A DNA stretch of 64,000 nucleotides from the human T2T-CHM13v2.0 reference genome, Homo sapiens (GCF_009914755.1 NC_060929.1); one strand, 5' to 3'. Numbered from the stretch's first letter, positions 8,424 through 64,000 are shown. Program-made: numbers and translations. The notes: generated by a model not told the origin, from the sequence alone.

Positions 8424-9350
8424 TAATTTTTATTGCTTTGTAGTGTTGTATATAAAATGCAACTTTATTCATCCATTCTATTGTCAATGAACGTTTGGGT
8501 TGTTCCCAATTTTTGGCATTTAAAAATATTGCAGCTTCATACATATTTGTAAATGTTTGAGCGTAGAAGTGATGGGCATTTGTCTATCCAGCCTTAGTAG
8601 ATACTGTCAAATGGCCTTCCAAAGTACTTGTACCAGTTTACATTCCCACCAACCACTACAGACTCCTGTTGCCCTATATCCTTGCTAACACTTGGCATGA
8701 CAGTCATTATTGACTTAAAACATTAAAAAAAAATTATATTAAAATTTTTGTAAATTACTTATCCAGGTGCTGTGGTTACATGCCTGTAGTCCTAGCTACT
8801 AGGGAGACTGAGGCAAAAGGATCCCTTGAACCCAGGAGTTCAAAGCTGCAGGGAGCTATAATTGTACCACTTCACTCCAGCCTGGGCAATAGGATGAGAC
8901 CCTTTCTAAAATAAGAAAAAAAAATTATAAATTACAGGCATCATGATTTGAAATAAGAGTTTAAAGGGTATACAGTAAAATTTCCCATCTCTCTTATCCC
9001 CTATTCAGCTTCCCTTTCCCCAGTCAAATGAGATCACCAGTCTCTTGTTTTACTTACAGTTTTAGATGATGTGTTAGCAAAAAGGCTGGTAAGTTTTCTT
9101 GGTCATTTTACAGATTTTTAGAAATGAGGGTATCCTTTGGAAAAACCCAGGTTAGAAGACAGAACTGAGCAAATAGAATCAGCTGCCTGTGTGGTTAGTG
9201 ATACTGCCAGGCACCTTGCGTATTTTACTTCAATTAACACTCCCAGCAATTCTCTTGACTAAATATTCCATTTCTGTGTTCAATTCTGCCTTCCCAGCAG
9301 ACCTGTTTTCATTTTGTTGAATTTATGTGATTCATTTTCTCCCTTTTTAG

Positions 9351-20909: not shown

Positions 20910-47949
<27,040 letters not shown>

Positions 47950-48000
47950 TTCCAGCATGTAGTATACATTGTATGTGTTAAAAAGAAATTTGCAACTGTG

Positions 48001-48006
48001 AATAAA
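48001..48006 (+). terminator. GTF2H2C: Proximal poly(A) signal candidate
   Basis: AATAAA 51 nt after the stop codon. Confidence 0.55.
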
Positions 48007-48372
48007 AGGACTTCTTTAGAAGAAGCTTCATTTAAAACATGAAAGGATAATCTGACTTAAGAAACTTTTTGCTAAGAAAAGGTAATATTTTATTAAATTT
48101 TAAATTTGTGTTGTCACAGAAATACCTGAAATTCAGTAGTACTTCATTCAATTAATTTTGTTTTCTATTATTTTGAGTTATACTGTTTTCAAAGTCATTA
48201 TGCAGTATGTATAAACTTATAAGAATTAAATTGATGTGATAATTTTATGTTTTTATAATTAAATATAGAATCTTTATGATTTATGTTAATTCATTAATTT
48301 AGTGTAAGAAGAAAGTTAAGTCTGAATGTAAATTCAGTGTAAGATGAAAATTTATCAATACTTATGAAATTA

Positions 48373-48750
<378 letters not shown>

Positions 48751-49499
48751 TTATCAAGTTAGTACATCTGAAATTATTTGTGGCTATGACCAACAGAAGT
48801 CACTTTACATTAAACATTCAAACTCACAAGACTGCCATGGCCATACTTGGTACCCGCTTACTCAGAAGGATATTAAACAGAAACAACAGCCTGCCAGCAC
48901 AGCATCAAGCAGTCCTCATTAGCAGTGGAAGTCCTTGTAGCAGTCCACTAGTACAATTTGGGTGCAAGGAGATAAGATCCTCCACAGGCATCAAGGAACC
49001 AATATCTCTTAACAATTCCATAAACACAGCTTCCAGGTATCCACAAGGGATGTGTCAATTTCAAGAGTCACTACACTCAGGAAAGCCTAAAGCTTGAAGA
49101 CTCCATTTATTTATAGTGCATCCCAATCCAGATACGTAACAATTAACGAGTTATTTTTACTATAAGCAAAGTTGCCTAAAATCATAGTTGATACTAACCA
49201 TGGTTAACAGAGCTCTAAAGTTTGACAGAAAGTGAGATTCAAATCCTTTCACTCTCATATGCTAAACCTTTTGCCTTACTCTGGGTCATCAGAGAAATTT
49301 AGGTGAGAATGTATGATGAAGTCTGTGTTTTAGATTCAATGCAGATATATCATTGTGGGCAGAACTCTTTCTGGTTATATCCAGTTAAGAGTAAATCAGG
49401 CTTTCAGCCGGGCGCGGTGGCTCACGCCTGTAATCCTAGCACTTTGGGAGGCCGAGGCGGGCAGATCACGAGGTCAGGAGATCGAGACCATCCTGGCTA

Positions 49500-49746
<247 letters not shown>

Positions 49747-49805
49747 CTATTTTATGTATATAAACTTCAGGTACTCTAACTTGAGTTTCACTATGAAATT
49801 TGTGA

Positions 49806-50009
<204 letters not shown>

Positions 50010-50183
50010 TGATCAGGCTGATCTCCAACTCCTGACCTCAGGTCATCCACCCACCTCCGCCACCGTGCCCGGCCGAAATTTGTGATTTTATAACTAAGAA
50101 TTTTTAGTTAAGAACATTATCAGTAAAGACAACGTAATCCCACCCTGGAGAGTTTATTGGGAGCCCAGGAATATTCATTTTTA

Positions 50184-50185
<2 letters not shown>

Positions 50186-50227
<42 letters not shown>
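50186..50227. repeat. (AC)21 microsatellite
   Basis: Read directly from the sequence. Confidence 0.95.
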
Positions 50228-50229
<2 letters not shown>

Positions 50230-50984
50230 ATCAGAGTAACGGGAGTTTCTCTCAGGAGTCATACTCCATGAGCCTGGACCCAGTGGTTCTTTATGTGGAA
50301 ACAAATTTCACCTATAGGTAACCTGGTAACTGCTATTTTCTTCTGTGTGCTCTGTCAACAAAGGTATCAGTGGCTTGCAGGAGATGCCTTTAATACTCAG
50401 AGCATTCTATCTCCCCCTATCTGGTTTAGAAGGAAGGCCTTCATTAGTTACCTTTTGAGAAGTTACTAGAACTCTCTATTAGAGACTTACCCTCCTGACC
50501 TGATAAAAAGGGATACCCATGTCTCTATTAACAGCTTTATCTCTTTCTACAGTTTTGGGTATTTGATAAGGTTAAGGCAAAATTTTAGTTATGCTTAAGG
50601 AGGAGTTCTTTTTTCACAATTACAGAGAAAATTTTGGTTTGTTGAAGATTGCAGAAACAGCAATGGTAATGTAAGACAGTTTTGGCCTTTAATTTTTTTC
50701 TTGAAACTCTACAGTATACTACAATAGTGAAGGAAACTATTATCATGAGAGATCCTTCTGAATAGGATGTCTTTCTGAGTTCCACTATTCAGTTACAAAA
50801 CTCCTTAATGCTTAAAATTCATTATGAAAATTAGATTTATTTTAAATACTTTCAAGTGTATACATTTTTATTTCATAATTTTTATTGTCTTTTAACTAAA
50901 GCATTTAGTTCATTTATATTTACTGTGTACCTTTTATATTTAATAAATATATTTACTTATTAAAAGATTACCACTGATATATTT

Positions 50985-51119
50985 TATTTATTATAAATAT
51001 TATATTTATAAATATATTATTTATATTTATATTTATATATTTATATATATTTATATATAATATATATTTTAATATATTATATATTAAAATATATAAATAT
51101 ATATAATAAATATAAATAT
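50985..51119. repeat. Pure A/T low-complexity tract
   Basis: About 135 nt containing only A and T. Confidence 0.9.
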
Positions 51120-51261
51120 TTATTAAAAGATTACCACTGATATATTTGGGTTTAAGTCTATTATCTTTGTGTTATTGGTTCCAACAATTCCATCTTTCGT
51201 TTTTTTAAATTTTTTTAACTACATATTTGATACGATCTTTTCCTTCTTGCCTTCTTTTTGA

Positions 51262-51623
<362 letters not shown>

Positions 51624-53083
51624 TGACCTCATGATCCATCTGCCTTGGCCTCCCAAAGTGCTGGGATTACAGGCGTGAGCCACCACGCCTGGTCAACAAC
51701 AAGAATTTCTTAACTTAGGTCCCCTAGGAAGTAGAACCTGAGGCAAAGATGAAAGTATTGTTACTTTATTAGGGAGGGACAGATCTAGGGGGGTGAGAGT
51801 GTGGAAGAAAAGGGAAAGCAAAGCAAGGAAAAACGTGATGCATTGTGTTACTGCAGTGACCAGGCTTCATGACAAGCTGTGACGAGATACAGGAGCCTTC
51901 CAGCAAGTGTGTTCACTTAGAGTGTGGGGCTTCTCCAGAAGGTTTATAAGGAGAAACTGCCCCTCTGAGCAGTCCATTGAAGGGAGGAAGGAGAAGTAAC
52001 TTAGTTTCCTAAGTTCTTCCATTTCCCGTTGATCCTAGTTTGCCCACAGGGCTGTGTCATCTCGTCCTTTGGTAACTGCTCAGGAAGCCAGATCTCGTGC
52101 TCAGTGGTGTGGCATTGCATCTACTTCTAGAAGGATTTCTCAATACTTTATAACTTCCTCATGTTTCTGGTCATGTCTGTGTTCAGCTATATCTCTAGAA
52201 CGGTTGGCCAATTCATAGCATGAAATGATTTCATGAGTGGTGACAAAGAAAGGGTGCAATCAGCCCTTGGGGAGTGGGTTAGTGGAATCCCAGTCCTGAG
52301 GCCATTAGTGGGTGGCAGAGTTTAGGAGAAAAGGTAAGAAGTTTCAGTCCTTGGGCCCTGTAGTAAGGAGAAAAAGGGTACAGGAGGTTGTCACACTTCT
52401 GAGAAGTAGTCTTAGAGTGCCCTAGTGCCTGCTTTGGATCCAGTTCTGTAAGGGCAGAGGATTCATTATTTCCAGGTAATTTAAGTATGTTCTGGGGAGA
52501 AGTGTTACAAGATGGACTGGGGACTCGGCTGGGATCCTGATGGGATCTAAATTATTGATTTCACCTGACTGAATTGCTATTTGCGTCACACCTCAGGACC
52601 CTGGAAACAATACACAATTTGCCCATTCATTAATTTATTAATTCACTCAACAAACTTGTACATCTGCCATAAGTCTGACACCATCCTAGTTATCAGGGAT
52701 GTAGATAGTCAAAAGAAGATGTAAACCTAACCTCATGCATCTGTGAATCTCCCCATCTAAAAAGACACAGCCTTGTAAAGAAGCTTGTGTGAAAGTGCTA
52801 ACGACAGACATGCCAAGTGTTAAGGGGATGCAGGAGAGGCGTGGTAAAATGGGTTGGGAGGCAGCTCAGATGTCTAAAGGGGTCAGGCAGACAATGCAGA
52901 TAAGTGAAAGAGGGCCAGTTGATGCAGAGTGGGGACATCTGGAAAGCACCCGCCCCATCTAAAGGAGGCAGCCTCTGAGAGTCTGGGGATCAGGGATAGA
53001 AGGGAGATGTACTTTTCACTGTACATCCTTTTGTATTTTTTAAATTTTGTTACTTAATTCAAAAAAATGTAAAAATAAAGTGA

Positions 53084-53380
<297 letters not shown>

Positions 53381-53716
53381 TAGGCTGGTCTTGAACTCCT
53401 GAGCTTAAGTAATCTGCACACCTCAGTCTTCCAAAGTATTGGAATCACAAGCGTGAGCCACCATGCCCAGCCGTAAAAACTGGATTTTTAAAGTGAATTC
53501 TCCCAAGTTTGAGATGTTAGCCTCTAATTTAGAAAAACACAGAGGCTAAATAAAACTTATCTTCAGTCCACCAGTTGACAAACTTTGGCCTGGCCTGTCT
53601 CTTTTCTATCGTTTATCATCAGGGCAGATAATCTTTTAAGTTTCAGGTGTTACACTTTCCTGGGATATACTCCTCTTAGGGGATAATTTATTTACTTTTT
53701 GTTTTTGTTTTTGTGA

Positions 53717-53998
<282 letters not shown>

Positions 53999-54394
53999 TA
54001 GGGGATAATTTAGGTTTTTTGTGTTTCTGTTTTAAATTTAAATTTTTATTTTTTTGAGGCAGTATCACTCTGTCTCTCAGGCTGGAGTGCAATGGCACAA
54101 TCAACTCACTGCAGCCTTGAATTCCTGGGCACAAGTGATCCTCCCAATTCAGCTTCTCAAGTAGCTAGGACTACAGGTGTGCACCACCATGCCTGGCTGA
54201 ATTTTTTTTTTAAGAGATGGACTCTTGCTGTGCTGTCCAGGCTCGTGTCAACTCCTGGCCTCAAATGATCCTCTCTCCTAGGCCTTCCAAAGTGCTGGGA
54301 TTACAGACGTTAGCCACTGTACCCAGCCTAGTTCAAGTTTTAAGCATTAAGAATTGACTCTTTGGAGGAATAGGGATCTTTTAAGGATCTCTAC

Positions 54395-54890
54395 AGTCAG
54401 TGACTCTAAATGTAGTGTTTGGACCAGTAAGTAGCATTAGCATCACCCAAGAAGTCATTAGAAATGCAAATTCTTGGCCAGGCGCGGTGCCTCATGCCTG
54501 TAATCCCAGCACTTTGGGAGGCTGAGGTGGGTAGATCACGAGGTCACGAGTTCGAGACCAGCTTGACCAACATGGTGAAACCCTGTCTCTACTAAAAATA
54601 CAAAAATTAGCCGGCCGTGGTGAAGGGCATCTGTAATCCCAGCTACTCAGGAGGATGAGGCAGGAGAATCACTTGAATCCAGGAGGCGGAGGTTGCTGTG
54701 AGCCAAGATCGCACCACTGCACTGCAGCCTGGGCAACAGAATGAGACTCCATCTCAAAAAAAAAAAAAAAAAGCAAATTCTTGAGCCCCATCACAGGCCT
54801 GTTGAATCAGAAACTCTGAGGATGGGTCTAGCAGTCCGCTTTAACAAATCCTCCAGGTGGTTACCATAAATGTTGAAGTGTGAGAGCTAC
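54395..54890. mobile_element. MER5A-type element split by an Alu
   Basis: AGCATCACC...TTAGAAATGCAAATTCTT, resuming after the Alu with duplicated GCAAATTCTT. Confidence 0.6.
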
Positions 54891-55004
54891 TGCCTGTAAT
54901 CCCATTTAGAGAGGTACATAGGTAACTTAAAAACAGGTCCTGATAAAAGAATTCTACTAAACTTAAAAAACAAATTCAGGTAACTTTATAAACAAACAAA
55001 TCTC

Positions 55005-55332
<328 letters not shown>

Positions 55333-55342
55333 TCACTTCTCT

Positions 55343-55655
55343 CTTTTGTTTTGTTTTTTTTTTTTTTTGAGACAGAGTCTCGCTCTGTCACCCAGGCTGG
55401 AGTGCAGTGGCGCGATCTCGGCTCACACTGCAATTTCTGCCTCCCGGGTTCACACCATTCTCCTGCCTCAGCCTCCCGAGTAGCTGGGACTACAGGTGCC
55501 CGCCACCACGCCCGGCTAATTGTTTTTTTGTATTTTTAGTAGAGACGGGGTTTCACCGTGTTAGCCAGGATGGTCTCGATCTCCTGACCTCGTGATCCGC
55601 CCGCCTCGGCCTCCCAAAGTGCTGGGATTACAGGCGTGAGCCACTGCACCCGACC
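55343..55655 (-). mobile_element. AluY
   Basis: TSD TTTTTCACTTCTCT. Confidence 0.92.
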
Positions 55656-55714
55656 TTTTTCACTTCTCTTAATGCTCTGTAAACATTAATGTATTTATAT
55701 ATGTACTTAGAATT

Positions 55715-57050
<1,336 letters not shown>

Positions 57051-58059
57051 AACTTCAGTGAGTATACACATATGCCCTGAAGTAGCTAAACTTTAAAACA
57101 CTGCCCTATGTGTGTGTACTTTTTAGCTAAAAAAGTGTTTGAAAACAGTATTATTTTGAAACTCAAAATTCCAAATCCTCTCTTCAAATTAGGTAGTAGT
57201 GTCACTGGAAGTAAAAGAGAAGTTACTTTAACTGCTAAAGAGTATCCACTAAGAATCTACAACAAACATCATGTTTAATGCTCAAACTTTAGAAGAATTT
57301 ATACCAAAAGTCAAGAATAAGATAGGATATCTATCTTCATTATTAAGCAACATTATATTAGAGGCCCTAATCAATGCAACAAGGCAATAAATAAAAGACA
57401 AAACTGTCATAATCAGATACTACAAACATCTAAGAAAATTCAGGGGGATTTACAGTCATATATTAAACAGTCCAGAAGGAGTCCTATACATCATCAATGA
57501 ATATTGAGAATAAAAAATAGTTTTTAAAACCCCTCCAATTTATAAGGGCAACAAAATGTACAAGGTACTAAAATAAATGTAATGTGTATTTGGGTATAAA
57601 TACAGCAACATAATGAAAAGGTTTATTGGGGAAAAAATTACAGGGAGAAGGGTCAACAACGTGAAGAGGTTCCCCTGCCATCTGGACTTCTGGAAAAAGA
57701 CCTGCTGGTCTAGGCACAGCTGGATGCACCATGGAAAGTGGTTCCAATAAACACTGGCACTGTAACAATTGTGTATGTTGATACAAAAAGAGGGAGCCAA
57801 TGAATACTTGGTCGATTATTTAACAATTGCTTCTCTGCTGAAGAAATGGCCTTGTTGGACTAGAGCTTAACTGTGGTTCACATACTAATGCTGCTATAAC
57901 AGCTAGAAGCCTTACTAAGAAATTTACTAAACCACCAAAAAGAGGAAATGAACCTTCTAGGACATCTGGATTGCCTTTTCTTAAAAATCTAGTCTTGGCT
58001 GGGTGCTGTGGTTCACGCCTGTAATCCCAGCATTTGGTGAGGCCGAAGTGGGCGGATCA

Positions 58060-58272
<213 letters not shown>

Positions 58273-58989
58273 CTAAAAAAAAAAAAAAAAATCTAGTCTG
58301 TATGGCAGCACAACATCAGGTAAAAGTACAGACTAGCCAGATCACTGGTTAACCTTAACCCCTATGTGCTTGAGTTTCCTTTTCTGTAATATGGAGATGA
58401 TATAGCAATAGCTGATTTTGGACTGTTAAAGGAATTAAGTGGACACATGTAAAGTGCTTAGAATTGTGCCTGGCAAGTAGTAGGCTGCAATATTGTGATA
58501 TAATAAATATATATATCTGATCTTCATCCAGTTCCTGGCACAGATCTCCAGAAACCCTTGTAATTTCCTGAGTGACAGGGGTGATAGAAACATCTTTTAT
58601 TAGAATACTTGGTCTTGGTTCCTGACACAAGAGCTTCTAAGACCTTTGGAATCTCCAAGTGATAAGAGTGTATGACAGTGAGCTAACTGGTGGCTGGGAT
58701 CCTTTAGACAACTTCAGGATGGGGGCTATCCCGTGAAAGACTAAGGCATGATTAGAGGTCTGGGATTTGCAGCCCCACGCCTCGACCTCCAGAGAGGGTA
58801 AAAGGGCTGGCGATTGATTAACCACCAGTTGCCAGTGATTTAGCCAATCATGCCTAAGTGATGGCACCTCCATTAAAAAATAAACCACAGGTTTGGAGAG
58901 CTTTCGGTTTGGTTAACCCCAACCACATACCAAGAAGGCGATGCACCTCAAACTGCATGAAGACAAAAGGTCCTGTGCTCACCTGGGAC

Positions 58990-59035
58990 CCTTCTGGACG
59001 TTGCCCTGTGTACCTCTTCGACTGCCTGTTCATCT
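58990..59035 (+). other. NAIP: NAIP-family non-coding exon within the MER21 LTR; start approximate
   Basis: Matches my recollection of the NAIP cDNA 5' end (CTGGACGTTGCCCTGTG...TTCATCT); followed by GTATCCTTT. Confidence 0.6.
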
Positions 59036-59113
59036 GTATCCTTTATAATAAAGCAGTAAACATAAGTAAAGTTTCTGAGTTCTGTGAGCCATTATAAGAA
59101 ACGATCGAACCTG

Positions 59114-60267
59114 GGATTTTCCTTTCGGAAGCCGCTCTCTCTCACAAGGGAGAGAGCTGTTCTCCTTTTTCTTTTGCGTGTTAAACCTCCGCTCCTAAAC
59201 CCACTCTTCGTGTGTATCGTGTCCTTAACCTTGTTGGTGCGAGACGACGAACCCCGGGTATTGACCCCAGACAACAATGCCACTTCATATTGGGGACTTC
59301 GTCTGGGATTCCAAGGTGCATTCATTGCAAAGGTGAGTAAAGGGGCGGACCTCAACTCTGTCCTTTGATTTCGAGGCTCTTGGCCTCCATTTTAGAATCA
59401 AACCAAACCAAATACTGGGCCCCCTTCTGCTTCTGTGAATGAGAAAACTCTGCCTTCACCAATTAGCCATTTAAAAATTATGAGCGTGGCTGCCAGCCTT
59501 ACAAGTTTTGGGGGACAGGCTTGCTGGGGAGAACATGGAGAACCCCCCAATACCCACGGGCTGCTGGGCATATTGGCCATGTTTGAACCAGTTTCCTTTC
59601 ACGGAGGACCAAGCTGTCGTGTGGGGCTGGAAGAGGTCCTGGAGCAACTGAGGATTTCTGGCTGGGGCTACCTCCTGGTGCCATCCGAAGGCTTCTGGAC
59701 TGACCCCAGCCTCCGACCACCCTAAGGGGTGTCGGCAACAGGACCTCCAACTTTCCTATCATAATTCCCTCATTTCCTATCCACGACCACCATGTCTCCT
59801 AACCTCTCTCTGTATGCAGTACTGAGGGAGTTTTACAGTTCAGGGAAGTAATCTTGTTAGGCAAGAACAAAGACTGCTGTAGTAACCAGGGATATAGCAC
59901 AGGGGCATGCTGTTGTGATTTTCTAGGAACAGAGGGTCTCCTCTCCCACCACAGTGAGCGTCACTCTCTGCCCTTGCTCTGGAAAGCACATGGCATGTCA
60001 AGGTCACTCTGCCCTTTGTCATAGTAAGATTAGGGTGGGGCGCCCAACCTTCCCCGCGTGCTATGTAAACGTCACACCTGTTCAAACCAACCTGTGGGCT
60101 CTGCGCAAATCAGACGCCGCCTCCTCAGGCCTACCTATAAAATCTGGTGCAGTCCACCGCAGGCCGGATTTTCCTTTCGGAAGCCCCTCACAAGGGAGAG
60201 ATCTGTTCTCGTTTTTCTTTCTTTTGCCTATTAAACCTCTGCTCCTAAACTCCCCCAACCCCCAAGA
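59114..60267 (+). mobile_element. ERV-P (LTR9/HUERS-P3-like) RNA copy: R-U5-PBS-leader...U3-R
   Basis: R segment repeated at 59114 and 60166; U5 ends in CA at 59287; tRNA-Pro-type PBS TGGGGACTTCGTCTGGGAT 59291-59309; TATAAAA 60136; ATTAAA 60230; flanking 18-bp direct repeat. Confidence 0.8.
59244..59332 (+). other. NAIP: NAIP-family non-coding exon spanning ERV U5/PBS
   Basis: gag|ACGACG acceptor; AAG|gtgagt retroviral major splice donor; matches the recalled NAIP 5' UTR. Confidence 0.7.
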
Positions 60268-62590
60268 AAGAAATTATCGAACCTGAGGGGGTTGCAGATA
60301 CCCATGATTTGTAGTGAACTCAGACAGAAGTGTGGGTACCCTGAGGTCCTAATAGTTGTGGCTGGCATCTGAAGTAGGGGGCAGTCTTGGGGGCTGAGCC
60401 CCTAACCCGTGGGGTCTGCACTAACTCTGGTTAATTAGCATCAGAATTGAGTAAAATTGTAAGACACTCAGCTGCTGTCTGTGGAGAATTGGAGAATTGG
60501 TTGGTGGAAAACCCATATATTTGATGTCAGAAATGTGAGTAGAGAAATGGTTTTTCCTTGATAGGCTCTATGTAAATTTTAGTTCATGTTTTTGGTAATA
60601 AATACACAATATTACTGATTCTTAAAAGTATAAACCCAGGAAAATTAAGAAAACAAGAATGTCAAGTCCAACAGAGTTTAAAGGTAAAAAAAAATAAAAT
60701 AGAACAGAAATGGGACCAGTAGCACATAGAATATTTTAACACATTCTTGGAAAGTAGAAACTATATGGACTAGTAGTCAGGAAGGAAGCAGCTCAAGGAA
60801 ACCGCTTCCTGAATATGGAGTCTCCTATGAGAGACTATCTGCCCTATGGAGAAGCTTGGAGTAACTGCGGACACAGGATGCCAGATAGGAAGGAGGGCTG
60901 GAGTGACATGAAGGGCTGAAAATTGAGGGACTAATTGGAAGCCCGTGCACGGGACAGTCAGCTCTCTCTACCCCATGATCAGAATATTTGACACACAAGT
61001 GTTTACCCTGGGGCAAAAAATTACAGGAGTCTTCCCTGCTTCCCCCAAAATTGAACACATTGCTTTCTCTTAGCTGACCTAGAGAACCAGTGTGGGCACT
61101 GGCACCCCAAAACTAAGAATCCTTTTAAGAAATGGTGATTTTATGTCCAAGGAACGTTCCAAGTAAGTTTTCGGCTGCTAGCTTTGTCTTTACAAGTAAC
61201 GGGCCAGGCCCAGTGGCTCATGACTGTAATCCCAGCATTTTGGGGGACTGAGGTGGGCAAATGGCTTGAGGTCAAGAGTTCAAGACCAGCTTGGGCAACA
61301 TGGCGAAACCCTGTCTCTACTAGAAATACAAAAATTAGCCAGGTGTGGTGGTGCATGCCTGTAGTCCCAGCTATTGTGGGGCTGAGATGAGAGGATCACT
61401 TGAGCCTGGGAGGTAGAGGCTGCAGTGAACCGAGATTGTGCCACTGCACTCCAGTCTGGGTGACAAAGTGAGACCCCATCTCCAAAAACAAAACAAAACA
61501 AAAAAAACCCCAAGTAACTTGAAATCATTTTCTGAAATCTTTCTCTGACATTCTGACATTAGGGTAATTCTTGTTCTCCATAGAGTGAAAGGCTCAGGTT
61601 CAAGTCCCACTCCTGTGGCTCCTGATTTTTTAATGATTAGTTTGACCAATGTGTTTTTAAATGACTTAATTTTTAAACATGAGTTGAAAACCCAGGATCA
61701 CTACACATTTGAGGAAAGTTGATAATATGAAAAGTAAACACCAAGGTAAGTGGTAAAAACCTTTGAGGAAACATAATTCAGGAAACAGGAACTTAAACAT
61801 TAGTATCGTACAGCAGATTCAGGAAGATGGCACTGGTTAAAAAAATTGACACTATGAAAATAAGGCACAGAGAAAAGAAAGAGCTGTGGGAAATTATAAT
61901 TGCTGAAATTTTAAACTAGATTGGAGAGCCGGAATATAAAGGAGAGGACAGCTGGGTGCGGTGGCTCACACCTGTCATCCCAGCATTTTGGGAGGCTGAG
62001 GCCGGCAGATCACTTGAGCCCGGGAGTTTGAGACCAGCCTGGGCAACAAGGTGAGACCCCCATCTCTACACAAAATAAAATATAAAATCAGCTGTGCATG
62101 GTAGCACACGTCTGTAGTCCCAAAACTTGGGAGGCTAGGTGGGAGGATCACTTGAGTCCAGGAGGTGGTGGCTGCAGTGAGCTGTGATTGTGCCATTGCA
62201 CTCCAGCCTGGATGACAGAGCGAGACCCTTAGAAAGTAGGAAAAGAATATATGAAAAAAAAATAAGTGATCAATTAATTACTCACCTGAATAGTGGGAAT
62301 ACCAAAAGAGTAAAAAGAGAGTAACAGACAGTAGGAAGTTATCAAATAAATAATAGAAGGTAATTTCCCAGGCTTGATGGGAGACCCAAGAGCTCAGATT
62401 GAAAATGCCCATTGAATACCCAGCCCAATGAATGTAGAGAGGTCTACACTTAGGAGAAAAGATCCTAAAAGCTACCAGAAAGATAGAAACTGTTACTATA
62501 ACAGAAATAAGACACTAGCACCTTAACTATTAACCAATCTTAACAAACTAGAATAAAGGCCGGATGTGGTGGTTCATGCCTATAATCCTA

Positions 62591-62764
<174 letters not shown>

Positions 62765-62864
62765 TCATTACTCCTTTGGGGTCCTGATTAAATCCTGTTG
62801 ACTCAAGACCTTAGAGCATTTACTGGTAAAGTCTCTGACTGCGCGATTTTTTTTTGCATTTTAG

Positions 62865-62990
62865 TTCCTTAAATATTTTCTCACTGCTTCCTACTAAAGG
62901 ACGGACAGAGCATTTGTTCTTCAGCCACATACTTTCCTTCCACTGGCCAGCATTCTCCTCTATTAGACTAGAACTGTGGATAAACCTCAG
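62865..62990 (+). other. NAIP: NAIP-family 5' UTR exon preceding the ATG exon (gene or pseudogene copy; coding exons are not in the window)
   Basis: ttttag|TTCCTT acceptor; CAG|gtaagt donor; ...GAACTGTGGATAAACCTCAG is recognised as preceding the NAIP start codon. Confidence 0.8.
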
Positions 62991-64000
62991 GTAAGTAAAT
63001 TACTATCCCTGGCAAAGGTGCTTTTCTTCCACACCTAAACCTATGGTCCCTTCTTTGTCTTGCTATTGTTTCTCTCTTTGGAGGCAGGATGGTATGGAGG
63101 AAAGAGGACAGACACTGGAGTCACACAGACTTGGGTTTAAATCCTAGCTCCATGGCACAGTTGCCTCAATGGCACTCTTAGCACTGTAGTCAAAGAATAT
63201 TAGACCTGGAAAGGGCCTTGGAAATTACTTCTCCTCCCCCAGAAACAGCCTCTAGACTGGCATGATTGACCACCAAACTTCGTTGTGTCAGACAGGATCA
63301 ATGTCTGCTGGTCTGCTGCAACTCTGTACTCATTTATCTCTGGGGAGGCCTGAAGCCTTGGTGCTGTTCCTTGGCCAAACCTAAATGAAATGTACTAGCC
63401 AGTGATTAATAGAGTCCTGTGCTGGGGTGGGAGACAGACCAGGGAGCAGCCTGTTTCTTGCTTCTTTCTTTCTTTTTGGAGATGAAATCTCATTGGCTTT
63501 GAACTTCTGGGCTCAAGTGATCCTCCCACTTCAGCCTCCCAAGTAGCTGGGATTACAGGTGCATGCCACTGCCCCAGCTTGACTATACCAGCTTGTTTCT
63601 GGTTTTGAGCCCTGGTATGCAAGCTAGTGTTGGCTACCTGATCAGAGGAGTATAAAAGAGCCTCAGATGAGGTTACAGTTCTCTTGAGACCAAGGTGTCT
63701 TGCATGTATCATCTAGCTGGTTCATTGCTTAAAGATGAAGCACATCTTCCACATCCTCTGTGGCTGCAAAAGGACCCTAGGAACTGGGTGTGGTGTTTCA
63801 CTTGCCTTTTGGTTTGTTGGGTTTTTTTTTTTTGTATCTATCCTTTACCTTTATTAAAGCCTTATGTGAGGATACTATGCGGAGTCTTCTAAGTCTTTTC
63901 AATGATCCAAACCTGTGTAATTGATGAAGAGGGTACTGTGAATAGGATCATTACTTTTTTTTTGTTTTTGAGACAGGGTCTCTCTCACTCTGTCACCCAA

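What the first reader, a model, noticed from the sequence alone, without database searches (positions are those of the whole stretch)
59036..59243. Candidate de novo U12 (minor-spliceosome) intron built from two different LTR elements in the NAIP 5' UTR
Seen: the 208-nt segment starts with GTATCCTTT and ends TCCTTAAC-CTTGTTGGTGCG-AG. The branch A at 59228 is 15 nt from the 3' end and there is no polypyrimidine tract. Established: GTATCCTTT and TCCTTAAC are the U11 5' splice site and U12 branch consensus, at the usual spacing. U12 introns are generally ancient and gains are considered very rare. Here the donor lies in the MER21 LTR and the branch point and acceptor lie in the later ERV-P insert, so the intron could only exist after that insertion. 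My recollection of the NAIP cDNA joins exactly CATCT|ACGACG. Inference: this is a primate-age, transposon-derived minor intron. The LTR promoters of NAIP are published; I do not know whether the U12 character of this intron has been reported.
Basis: partly seen in the sequence, partly recalled or inferred. Interest (0 to 1): 0.85.

Follow-up and report, generated by a model that had tools for sequence, protein, structure and literature searches.

The report
Known NAIP minor intron, LTR-built, duplicated copy
This 208-base stretch has textbook signals of a rare minor-spliceosome intron, assembled when a retroviral RNA copy landed inside an older retroviral repeat; the identical intron of the NAIP gene is already in a minor-intron database, and this window holds its duplicate.

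Summary
GTATCCTTT lies at 59036-59044, TCCTTAAC at 59222-59229 and AG at 59242-59243. The branch A is 15 nt from the intron end.

The U12 classification is not new. Supplements of Olthof et al. 2019 (MIDB) list a 208-nt NAIP intron with the same two 12-mers, labelled HumanOnly.

This window is not NAIP itself. It is an inverted duplicate, 99.3% identical over 19.7 kb, lying beside GTF2H2C. No gene is annotated at the site.

The origin from two LTRs is supported and sharpened:
- **Donor.** It is a family feature of MER21-type LTRs: 14 of 28 copies carry it exactly, and its 18-mer occurs 162 times in the genome.
- **Branch and acceptor.** They are a family feature of LTR9/HERV-P U5: 13 of 32 copies have them.
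- **Insert.** It starts at R, ends after its poly(A) signal and has an 18-nt flanking repeat, like an L1-made retrocopy of HERV-P RNA.

I saw no RNA data and no test of minor-spliceosome dependence. I found no main-text report of the LTR origin.

The parts
58450..59095 (+). MER21C-type LTR, 5' part, sense orientation. Holds the 3' end of upstream exon 1, which ends at 59035. The exon start was not determined here.
   Evidence: Homology to 28 other MER21-like copies. Romanish 2007 names it MER21C (passages).
59036..59243 (+). 208-nt GT-AG intron with U12-type signals
   Evidence: The identical sequence at the NAIP locus is listed as a 208-nt minor intron.
59036..59044 (+). U12-type 5' splice site GTATCCTTT
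   Evidence: Positions +4 to +9 can pair with nt 3-8 of the genome's own U11 snRNA, giving 5 Watson-Crick pairs and 1 G-U pair. The motif is exact in 14 of 28 MER21-like copies.
59047..59052 (+). AATAAA poly(A) signal of the MER21C LTR, inside the intron, beginning 11 nt after the donor G
   Evidence: ATAATAAA is kept in most aligned MER21-like copies.
59096..59113 (+). 5' copy of the flanking repeat (target-site duplication) AAGAAACGATCGAACCTG
   Evidence: It matches 60268-60285 at 16 of 18 positions.
59114..59205 (+). R region of the HERV-P/LTR9 insert. No U3 precedes it. The hexamer at 59180-59185 reads GTTAAA where the 3' R has ATTAAA.
   Evidence: It aligns to 60169-60252 with 75 matches and 5 mismatches.
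59206..59288 (+). U5 region of LTR9. Holds the branch site, the acceptor and the first 45 nt of exon 2.
   Evidence: Solo-LTR copies end their match at 59287-59291.
59222..59229 (+). U12-type branch site TCCTTAAC, branch A at 59228
   Evidence: It forms 7 Watson-Crick pairs with nt 18-24 of the genome's own U12 snRNA, with A59228 bulged. 13 of 32 LTR9-like copies have TCCTTRAY here.
59242..59243 (+). 3' splice site AG
   Evidence: AG is at the aligned place in 30 of 32 LTR9-like copies.
59244..59332 (+). Exon 2 (89 nt): end of U5, a primer-binding-site-like stretch and the retroviral leader. Holds an upstream ATG at 59277-59279.
   Evidence: The 5' edge comes from the catalogued intron. The 3' edge is inferred from AAG|GTGAGT. 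Calling the stretch a tRNA-Pro primer site is recalled, not tested.
59333..59338 (+). U2-type donor GTGAGT of the next intron, probably the retroviral leader splice donor
   Evidence: GT[GA]AGT is kept in 8 of 10 other distinct HERV-P copies.
60011..60252 (+). 3' LTR of the insert, U3 plus R only. TATAAAA at 60136-60142, R from 60166, ATTAAA at 60230-60235.
60253..60267 (+). Tail of the insert, CCCCAACCCCCAAGA. It is C-rich, not the A-rich tail seen in sister copies.
60268..60285 (+). 3' copy of the flanking repeat AAGAAATTATCGAACCTG
60286..60550 (+). MER21C-type LTR, 3' part, resuming after the insert
   Evidence: Single MER21-like copies (L014, L026, L036, L040) align across both parts, with a 15-nt overlap at the junction.

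Best explanation
The segment is a duplicate of the 208-nt U12-type (GT-AG) intron in the LTR-derived upstream 5' UTR of NAIP. It is identical to the NAIP copy across a 2,264-nt block.

In transcripts that start in or before the MER21C LTR, the likely steps are:
- U11 pairs with GTATCCTTT.
- U12 pairs with TCCTTAAC and bulges out A59228.
- The intron is removed, joining ...CATCT to ACGACG....
- This takes out the MER21C AATAAA signal and the R region of the insert.
- Exon 2 then ends at the retroviral leader donor, AAG|GTGAGT.

The intron was made by juxtaposition, not by new point mutations. MER21-type LTRs carry the donor word just before their poly(A) signal. LTR9 U5 regions carry a TCCTTAAT-type branch site with an AG 15 nt on. 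A retrocopy of a short HERV-P RNA (R-U5...U3-R, with an 18-nt target-site duplication, L1-like) landed 60 nt after the donor motif. Because the copy begins at R rather than U3, the two signals lie only 186 nt apart.

Shown here: the sequence, the repeat homologies, the duplication and the database listing.
Inferred: actual use of the minor spliceosome, use of this particular copy, and L1 as the agent of insertion.
For: **Motifs and spacing.**

**Pairing with the snRNAs of this genome.** U12 was fetched, U11.

**Poor fit to a U2-type intron (read).** The donor matches the recalled U1 consensus only at G+1, T+2 and A+3. The acceptor is GAG and has no pyrimidine tract.

**Database listing (supplements of Olthof 2019, PMC6717393).**
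- File 1 has the row: NAIP, HumanOnly, protein coding, TCTGTATCCTTT, GTGTCCTTAACC, 98.44, 88.07.
- File 8 has chr5 71024407-71024614, ENST00000517649-NAIP, 208, minus.

**Copies in the genome.**
- Only two copies exist, both 100% identical to the 501-nt query.
- Window 44338-64000 aligns to C5:71496000-71476401 at 99.32%.
- The nearest differences are at 57712 and 59977.

**Donor as a family feature.**
- 14 of 28 MER21-like copies carry exact GTATCCTTT, and 18 of 28 carry RTATCCTT.
- The 18-mer TGTATCCTTTATAATAAA occurs 162 times, against 1 for the reversed control.

**Branch and acceptor as a family feature.**
- 13 of 32 LTR9-like copies have TCCTTRAY with AG at the aligned place. 12 of these 13 have the first AG 15 nt from the branch A, and one has an earlier AG at 9 nt.
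- The 23-nt pattern occurs 24 times, against 0 for the control.

**Insert structure.**
- Searches give the layout and the repeat.
- 8 of 12 sister loci with internal sequence also lack U3 at the 5' end.
- 7 of 7 displayed 3' ends run into A-rich tails.

**Literature.** Passages of Romanish 2007 describe MER21C interrupted by HUERS-P3/LTR9, both in the NAIP orientation, with the THP1 start site in MER21C and two exons upstream of the main start site.
Against: - I saw no RNA evidence. The junction rests on one Ensembl transcript model named in a supplement.
- Romanish 2007 could not confirm the MER21C start site by 5' RACE in primary tissues, so this is at best a minor isoform.
- No gene is annotated at this place in this window. 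Use of this copy is unknown, and short reads cannot tell the two copies apart.
- The base before the branch motif is G, where U12 A25 would need a T. The branch score in the table is 88, not near 100.
- A distance of 15 nt is at the upper side of the optimum I recall (11-13 nt).
- The exact motif pair arises by chance in about 1% of simulated windows.
- The tail of the insert is C-rich, not poly(A). This weakens the L1 retrocopy reading for this copy.
Confidence: 0.78

Rival explanations
1. At this copy the segment is only a silent duplicate. The GTF2H2C-side paralogue is not transcribed through this region, or not spliced here. The 'intron' then exists only at the NAIP locus, and the window shows an unused replica.
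For: The hub table lists no gene at 50971-64000. The nearest NAIP-related annotation, NAIPP3, starts at 74083. The region is a 99.3% duplicate.
Against: The promoter-bearing LTRs, both exons and 2,264 nt around the intron are identical to the NAIP copy. Whatever drives the NAIP upstream exons is therefore present here too. This rival is compatible with the main reading of what the sequence is.
Confidence: 0.4
2. The intron is removed by the major (U2-type) spliceosome. It has GT-AG ends, and its likeness to the U12 consensus is a by-product of LTR sequence.
For: The ends are GT-AG. Both motifs are inherited repeat sequence, not selected signals. Loose motif pairs are common by chance, in 107 of 300 simulations.
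Against: The donor TCT|GTATCC matches the recalled U1 consensus only at +1 to +3. There is no polypyrimidine tract and the acceptor is GAG. The donor and branch scores in the MIDB table are 98.4 and 88.1. Pairing to U11 and U12 is intact.
Confidence: 0.08
3. The annotated junction is an artefact of cDNA cloning or alignment in repeat-rich sequence, and no such splice occurs.
For: The region is made of repeats. [quoted passage not shown]
Against: The two intron edges share no short direct repeat that would favour template switching: CATCT|GTATC against GCGAG|ACGAC. The edges fall exactly on consensus splice signals. The next exon edge is a strong donor.
Confidence: 0.07

Closest known systems
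NAIP minor intron in MIDB (Olthof, Hyatt and Kanadia 2019, BMC Genomics; supplementary tables seen)
   Same: Same 208-nt sequence, same 5' splice-site 12-mer (TCTGTATCCTTT) and branch 12-mer (GTGTCCTTAACC). It is listed under ENST00000517649-NAIP and labelled HumanOnly.
   Different: That entry is the minus-strand copy at the NAIP gene. The window holds the plus-strand duplicate beside GTF2H2C. In the passages I saw, the table says nothing about repeats. The column headers were not seen, so the meaning of 'HumanOnly' and of the two scores is inferred.
LTR-derived 5' end of human NAIP (Romanish et al. 2007, PLoS Genet; passages seen)
   Same: A MER21C solitary LTR interrupted by a partly deleted HUERS-P3/LTR9 (HERV-P) element, both in the gene's orientation. 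The published THP1 start site lies in MER21C and the testis start sites in the 3' HERV-P LTR. Both elements are present in Old and New World monkeys.
   Different: The main text has 0 occurrences of 'U12' or 'AT-AC'. The R-U5...U3-R layout and the flanking repeat are not in the passages I saw. Figure S1, with the exon structures, was not seen.
Canonical, ancient U12-type introns of conserved genes (established knowledge)
   Same: Same donor and branch consensus, short branch-to-acceptor distance, no pyrimidine tract, and complementarity to U11 and U12.
   Different: Those are mostly in coding regions and conserved across animals or beyond. This one lies in a 5' UTR, is made of primate-age repeats and belongs to a minor isoform.
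Processed retrocopies of endogenous-retrovirus RNA made by LINE-1, as described for HERV-W (recalled: Pavlicek 2002, Costas 2002; not read here)
   Same: It starts at R, ends at the poly(A) site of the 3' R, and has a long target-site duplication at an A-rich target. Sister copies carry A-rich tails.
   Different: A different ERV family. The window's own tail is C-rich. I did not check whether such copies have been described for HERV-P.
Mass gain of U12-type introns in Physarum polycephalum (bioRxiv 10.1101/2020.10.12.336362; search listing and start of abstract only)
   Same: An example that minor introns can be gained. The listing shows that the text mentions transposable elements.
   Different: A different organism and scale. 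I did not read the text, so no closer comparison is made.

Membership tests
U12-type (minor-spliceosome) intron | 5' splice site RTATCCTT(T) right at the exon edge | tested here: met
   GTATCCTTT at 59036-59044. The consensus itself is established knowledge.
U12-type (minor-spliceosome) intron | Branch site TCCTTRAY close to the 3' end (roughly 10-20 nt from branch A to the intron end; range recalled) | tested here: met
   TCCTTAAC at 59222-59229. A59228 is 15 nt from 59243.
U12-type (minor-spliceosome) intron | No polypyrimidine tract | tested here: met
   CTTGTTGGTGCG lies between branch motif and AG, with no pyrimidine run longer than 2.
U12-type (minor-spliceosome) intron | Base pairing with U11 (donor) and U12 (branch, with a bulged A) | tested here: met
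   U11 5' end is AAAAAGGGC: 5 Watson-Crick pairs plus 1 G-U with +4 to +9. U12 nt 18-24 is GTAAGGA: 7 pairs with A59228 bulged. The upstream G59221 does not pair with A25.
U12-type (minor-spliceosome) intron | The edges are a real exon-exon junction in RNA | tested here: inconclusive
   An Ensembl transcript model with this 208-nt intron is named in a supplement for the NAIP copy. No reads were seen, and nothing is known for this copy.
U12-type (minor-spliceosome) intron | Splicing depends on U11, U12 and U4atac/U6atac | not testable with these tools
   This needs knock-down, patient-cell or minigene data.
MER21C LTR (donor side) | Sequence homology to other copies of the family on both sides of the insert | tested here: met
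   28 other copies at 67-82% identity. Single copies span both parts. The family name is taken from Romanish 2007; no repeat library was run.
LTR9 / HUERS-P3 (HERV-P) element (acceptor side) | Homology of 59111-59288 and 60011-60252 to LTR copies, and of 59290-59950 to internal sequence | tested here: met
   The name is taken from Romanish 2007.
LINE-1-made processed retrocopy of ERV RNA | Starts at the transcription start (R) and ends at the poly(A) site of the 3' R | tested here: met
   The insert starts at 59114, which corresponds to 60166, 30 nt after the first T of TATAAAA. R ends at 60252, 17 nt after ATTAAA.
LINE-1-made processed retrocopy of ERV RNA | Long target-site duplication at an A-rich target | tested here: met
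   18-nt repeat, 16 of 18 identical, starting AAGAAA.
LINE-1-made processed retrocopy of ERV RNA | Poly(A) tail | tested here: not met
   The tail at 60253-60267 is CCCCAACCCCCAAGA. 7 of 7 sister copies displayed do have A-rich tails. I therefore say this copy works like such a retrocopy, and do not file it firmly as one.

The most novel reading that the evidence does not exclude
This would be a clean, datable case of the birth of a minor-spliceosome intron in primates by pure juxtaposition. Two unrelated LTR families each carry, as a family-wide feature, one half of a near-perfect U12 intron. MER21-type LTRs carry the donor, whose 18-mer has about 160 further exact copies in the genome. LTR9 U5 carries the branch site and acceptor. 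A retrocopy of HERV-P RNA lacking U3 dropped the second half 60 nt behind the first. If so, LTRs are a standing reservoir of latent minor splice sites. Other lineage-specific minor introns, or U11 binding sites that affect LTR polyadenylation, could then be found by searching such pairs.
Probability: 0.5. Interest if true: 0.6.

Novelty: already known. Interest (0 to 1): 0.4.

Why it matters
Minor introns are usually treated as ancient relics that are lost far more often than gained. Here each base of a young one can be traced to a dated repeat. That makes the question 'how does a U12 intron arise?' testable in primate genomes and in minigenes.

The practical weight is small:
- The intron lies in the 5' UTR of a minor NAIP isoform.
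- It is already catalogued as a minor intron.
- The copy in this window has no annotated gene.

One point matters for expression work. The two copies are identical for 2.2 kb, so short reads from this intron cannot be assigned to NAIP or to the duplicate.

Tried and rejected

I therefore did not see the supplements of Moyer 2020 (IAOD/intronIC) or Olthof 2024, the column headers of the Olthof 2019 tables, or Figure S1 of Romanish 2007. Any of these may bear on prior reports.
- File 2 of Olthof 2019 has a NAIP row of eight numbers. I cannot interpret it without headers.

**Literature searches.** All ten were used. By title and start of abstract, none turned up a main-text report of the NAIP minor intron or of a minor intron derived from an LTR.
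- (NAIP + minor intron) gave 3 papers on spinal muscular atrophy or neuromuscular disease.
- (NAIP + U12) gave 34 papers, 15 listed, none on this point by title.
- One search was badly framed. Only papers without MER21 or LTR9 were listed, so it excludes nothing for two-term combinations.
- Subscription journals are not covered.

**Analyses that led nowhere**
- The repeat finder on 57500-64000 found only Alu-like repeats and missed the 3' LTR. BLAST in scripts found it.
- Motif statistics alone were rejected as evidence.
- An alternative acceptor for the MER21C donor before the insertion was considered: TCCTTGAT at 60555-60562, with usable AG only 21 nt on. It was not pursued.
- Dating from R-R divergence (5 mismatches in 80 aligned bases) is too coarse. 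I rely instead on the statement in Romanish 2007 of at least 40 million years.
- intronIC, MaxEnt scores, RNA-seq and primate alignments were not available.

Full report
**1. The observation**

One search shows ...TTCATCT|GTATCCTTTATAATAAAGC... with GT at 59036-59037. It also shows ...GTGTCCTTAACCTTGTTGGTGCGAG|ACGACGAACC... with AG at 59242-59243. The segment is 208 nt long.

TCCTTAAC lies at 59222-59229. Its second A, 59228, is 15 nt from the last intron base. The 12 nt between the motif and AG hold no pyrimidine run longer than two.

As bare motifs these are not rare:
- GTATCCTTT occurs twice in the window, against 0.83 expected.
- TCCTTAAC occurs once, against 2.99 expected.
- The looser RTATCCTT occurs 9 times and TCCTTRAY 7 times.

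I simulated 300 Markov windows. The exact pair, with an AG or AC 9-20 nt after the branch A and within 1 kb, arose in 3. The loose pair arose in 107. Such exact pairs would therefore occur by chance several hundred times in a genome. The case for an intron must rest on more than motifs.

**2. Where this is**

The 501 nt around the segment occur exactly twice in the assembly, both at 100% identity. One is this window, on the plus strand. The other is C5:71481002-71481502, on the minus strand.

Window 44338-64000 aligns in one piece to C5:71496000-71476401 at 99.32% identity, with 53 mismatches and 14 gap openings in 19,672 columns. The nearest differences to the segment are at 57712 and 59977, so 57713-59976 is identical in both copies.

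The hub table shows no gene between the end of GTF2H2C (50970) and the window end. The nearest NAIP-related entry, NAIPP3, starts at 74083. The window therefore holds the duplicate of the region upstream of NAIP that lies beside GTF2H2C, not the NAIP gene itself.

The minus-strand copy is taken to be the NAIP one because the published table places the intron on the minus strand of chr5.

**3. Prior knowledge**

*The MIDB listing.* The supplements of Olthof, Hyatt and Kanadia 2019 (PMC6717393) were searched for NAIP.
- File 8 holds 'chr5 71024407 71024614 ENST00000517649-NAIP 208 -'.

The two 12-mers are those of the window at 59033-59044 and 59219-59230, and the length is the same. So this intron, at the NAIP copy, is already catalogued as a minor intron and tied to an Ensembl transcript model. 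I saw only these passages, not the column headers.

*The LTR background.* Passages of Romanish et al. 2007 (PMC1781489) state the following:
- The published THP1 start site lies on a MER21C solitary LTR that is interrupted by a HUERS-P3/LTR9 element, which they call HERV-P.
- Both elements are in the gene's orientation.
- The main start site lies in the third exon of that cDNA form.
- Both elements are present in Old World and New World monkeys, so they are at least 40 million years old.
- They could not confirm the MER21C start site by 5' RACE in primary tissues.

Their main text has no occurrence of 'U12' or 'AT-AC'.

*Searches.* My ten literature searches found no main-text report of this intron's class or of a minor intron derived from an LTR. 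I judged by titles and abstract starts only. One search was poorly framed.

Paper reading closed. The IAOD and 2024 taxonomy supplements, and Figure S1 of Romanish 2007, were therefore not seen.

**4. Anatomy**

*Boundaries.* BLAST of fetched repeat copies against the window gives this layout:
- MER21-type LTR at about 58450-59113.
- The insert from there to about 60267.
- MER21-type LTR again at 60271-60550.

Single MER21 copies (L014, L026, L036, L040) span both parts, with a 15-nt overlap at the junction.

*Flanking repeat.* Reading the sequence shows an 18-nt repeat on both sides of the insert. AAGAAACGATCGAACCTG is at 59096-59113 and AAGAAATTATCGAACCTG at 60268-60285. They match at 16 of 18 positions.

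*Shape of the insert.* Its 5' end (59114) corresponds to 60166 in its own 3' LTR. That is 30 nt after the first T of TATAAAA (60136-60142), about where transcription should start. Its 3' LTR stops at 60252, 17 nt after ATTAAA (60230-60235).

The insert therefore has the shape R-U5-leader-...-U3-R. That is the shape of a retroviral RNA, not of an integrated provirus.

*Sister copies.*
- 8 of 12 distinct loci with internal HERV-P sequence likewise have R but no U3 at the 5' end.
- All 7 whose 3' end I displayed run from ...CTCCTAAAC into A-rich tails.
- By eye, at least L007 and L061 show flanking repeats.

This is the pattern I recall for LINE-1-made processed retrocopies of HERV-W RNA. The window's own tail (60253-60267) is C-rich rather than A-rich, and I cannot explain that.

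*Parts of the intron.* The intron consists of 78 nt of MER21C, 92 nt of HERV-P R and 38 nt of U5. The MER21C part holds the donor, the AATAAA at 59047-59052 and the 5' copy of the flanking repeat.

*Exon 2.* Exon 2 (59244-59332) is the rest of U5, a primer-binding-site-like stretch and the leader. It ends at AAG|GTGAGT. That donor is kept as GT[GA]AGT in 8 of 10 other distinct HERV-P copies, so it is probably the retroviral leader donor.

**5. Which bases pre-existed**

*Donor.* The sample was the 28 best-scoring non-self MER21-like copies, drawn from 778 first-look candidates of which 40 were scored. Fourteen have exact GTATCCTTT at the aligned place and 18 have RTATCCTT.

The 18-mer TGTATCCTTTATAATAAA occurs 162 times in the genome, against 1 for its reversed control. 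So the donor is a family feature that sits just before the LTR's poly(A) signal.

*Branch and acceptor.* I compared 32 distinct LTR9-like copies covering 59215-59250, after dropping self hits, places fetched twice and partial rows.
- 13 have TCCTTRAY with AG at the aligned place. 12 of these have the first AG 15 nt from the branch A; one (L043) has an earlier AG at 9 nt.
- 30 of 32 have the aligned AG.
- The copies without the motif mostly read TCCTAAAT.

The pattern GTCCTTAAYCTTSTTGGYRYGAG occurs 24 times, against 0 for the control. The 22 other places read TCCTTAAT...CTTC. Only the two NAIP-type copies read TCCTTAAC...CTTG.

Both halves therefore pre-existed. The insertion brought them together, and one later T-to-C change moved the branch word to the best consensus.

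'De novo' should be read as new by juxtaposition.

**6. How it most likely works**

I fetched the genome's own snRNAs with Rfam models.
- The U11 5' end AAAAAGGGC can pair with donor positions +4 to +9, giving 5 Watson-Crick pairs and one G-U pair.
- U12 nt 18-24 (GTAAGGA) pairs with TCCTTA-C and bulges A59228, giving 7 pairs.
- The base before the motif, G59221, does not pair with U12 A25. This fits a branch score below the donor score in the table.

As a U2-type intron it would be very weak. The donor matches the recalled U1 consensus only at +1 to +3. The acceptor is GAG without a pyrimidine tract.

The edges share no direct repeat that would suggest a reverse-transcriptase artefact.

I therefore hold that transcripts starting in or upstream of MER21C are spliced here by the minor spliceosome.

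Splicing removes the MER21C AATAAA and the R hexamer. That hexamer reads GTTAAA at 59180-59185 in this copy, against ATTAAA in the 3' R. It is speculation that U11 binding just upstream of the AATAAA also dampens polyadenylation there.

**7. Limits**

- I saw no RNA data and no functional test.
- The isoform is minor at best.
- Use of this copy is unknown.
- Repeat names come from the paper, not from a repeat library.

**8. Verdict**

The class of the intron is already catalogued and the LTR make-up of the region is published.

- This window holds the duplicate, not NAIP.
- Both splice signals are family features of their LTRs.
- The insert looks like an RNA-derived retrocopy lacking U3.

Interest is moderate, mainly as a worked example of how a minor intron can arise.

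Noticed in passing
window 44338-64000 and G000 C5:71476401-71496000: An inverted segmental duplication, 99.32% identical over 19.7 kb. It joins the 3' part of GTF2H2C and the upstream NAIP-type exons. Reads from 57713-59976 cannot be assigned to one copy.
   Followed up: yes
L003, L004, L007, L010, L061, L063, L069, L070 (and window 59114-60267): A family of short HERV-P/LTR9 elements of about 1 kb, shaped R-U5...U3-R. They have A-rich tails and, in some, flanking repeats. They look like LINE-1-made retrocopies of a short HERV-P RNA. 8 of 12 loci with internal sequence have this shape.
   Followed up: partly
window 60253-60267: The tail of the window's HERV-P insert is CCCCAACCCCCAAGA. It is C-rich, whereas 7 of 7 sister copies have A-rich tails. 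Unexplained.
   Followed up: no
window 59333-59338: The donor that ends exon 2 (AAG|GTGAGT) is kept in 8 of 10 other HERV-P copies. NAIP-type exon 2 therefore seems to borrow the retroviral leader splice donor.
   Followed up: partly
window 59180-59185 vs 60230-60235: The R-region poly(A) hexamer reads GTTAAA in the 5' R, inside the intron, and ATTAAA in the 3' R and in most sister copies.
   Followed up: no
window 59277-59279: An upstream ATG in exon 2, open to the exon end.
   Followed up: no
window 9130-9138 (+): A second exact GTATCCTTT, inside the last OCLN intron and about 220 nt before the last exon. It is not at an annotated exon edge and is in line with chance.
   Followed up: no
window 60555-60562 (+): TCCTTGAT in or just past the 3' part of MER21C, with a usable AG only 21 nt on. 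Before the HERV-P insertion it would have lain about 350 nt after the MER21C donor.
   Followed up: no
genome-wide: The word TGTATCCTTTATAATAAA, a U12-type donor plus a poly(A) signal, occurs 162 times in the assembly against 1 for the reversed control. That is a large set of latent U11-type sites in MER21-like LTRs.
   Followed up: partly
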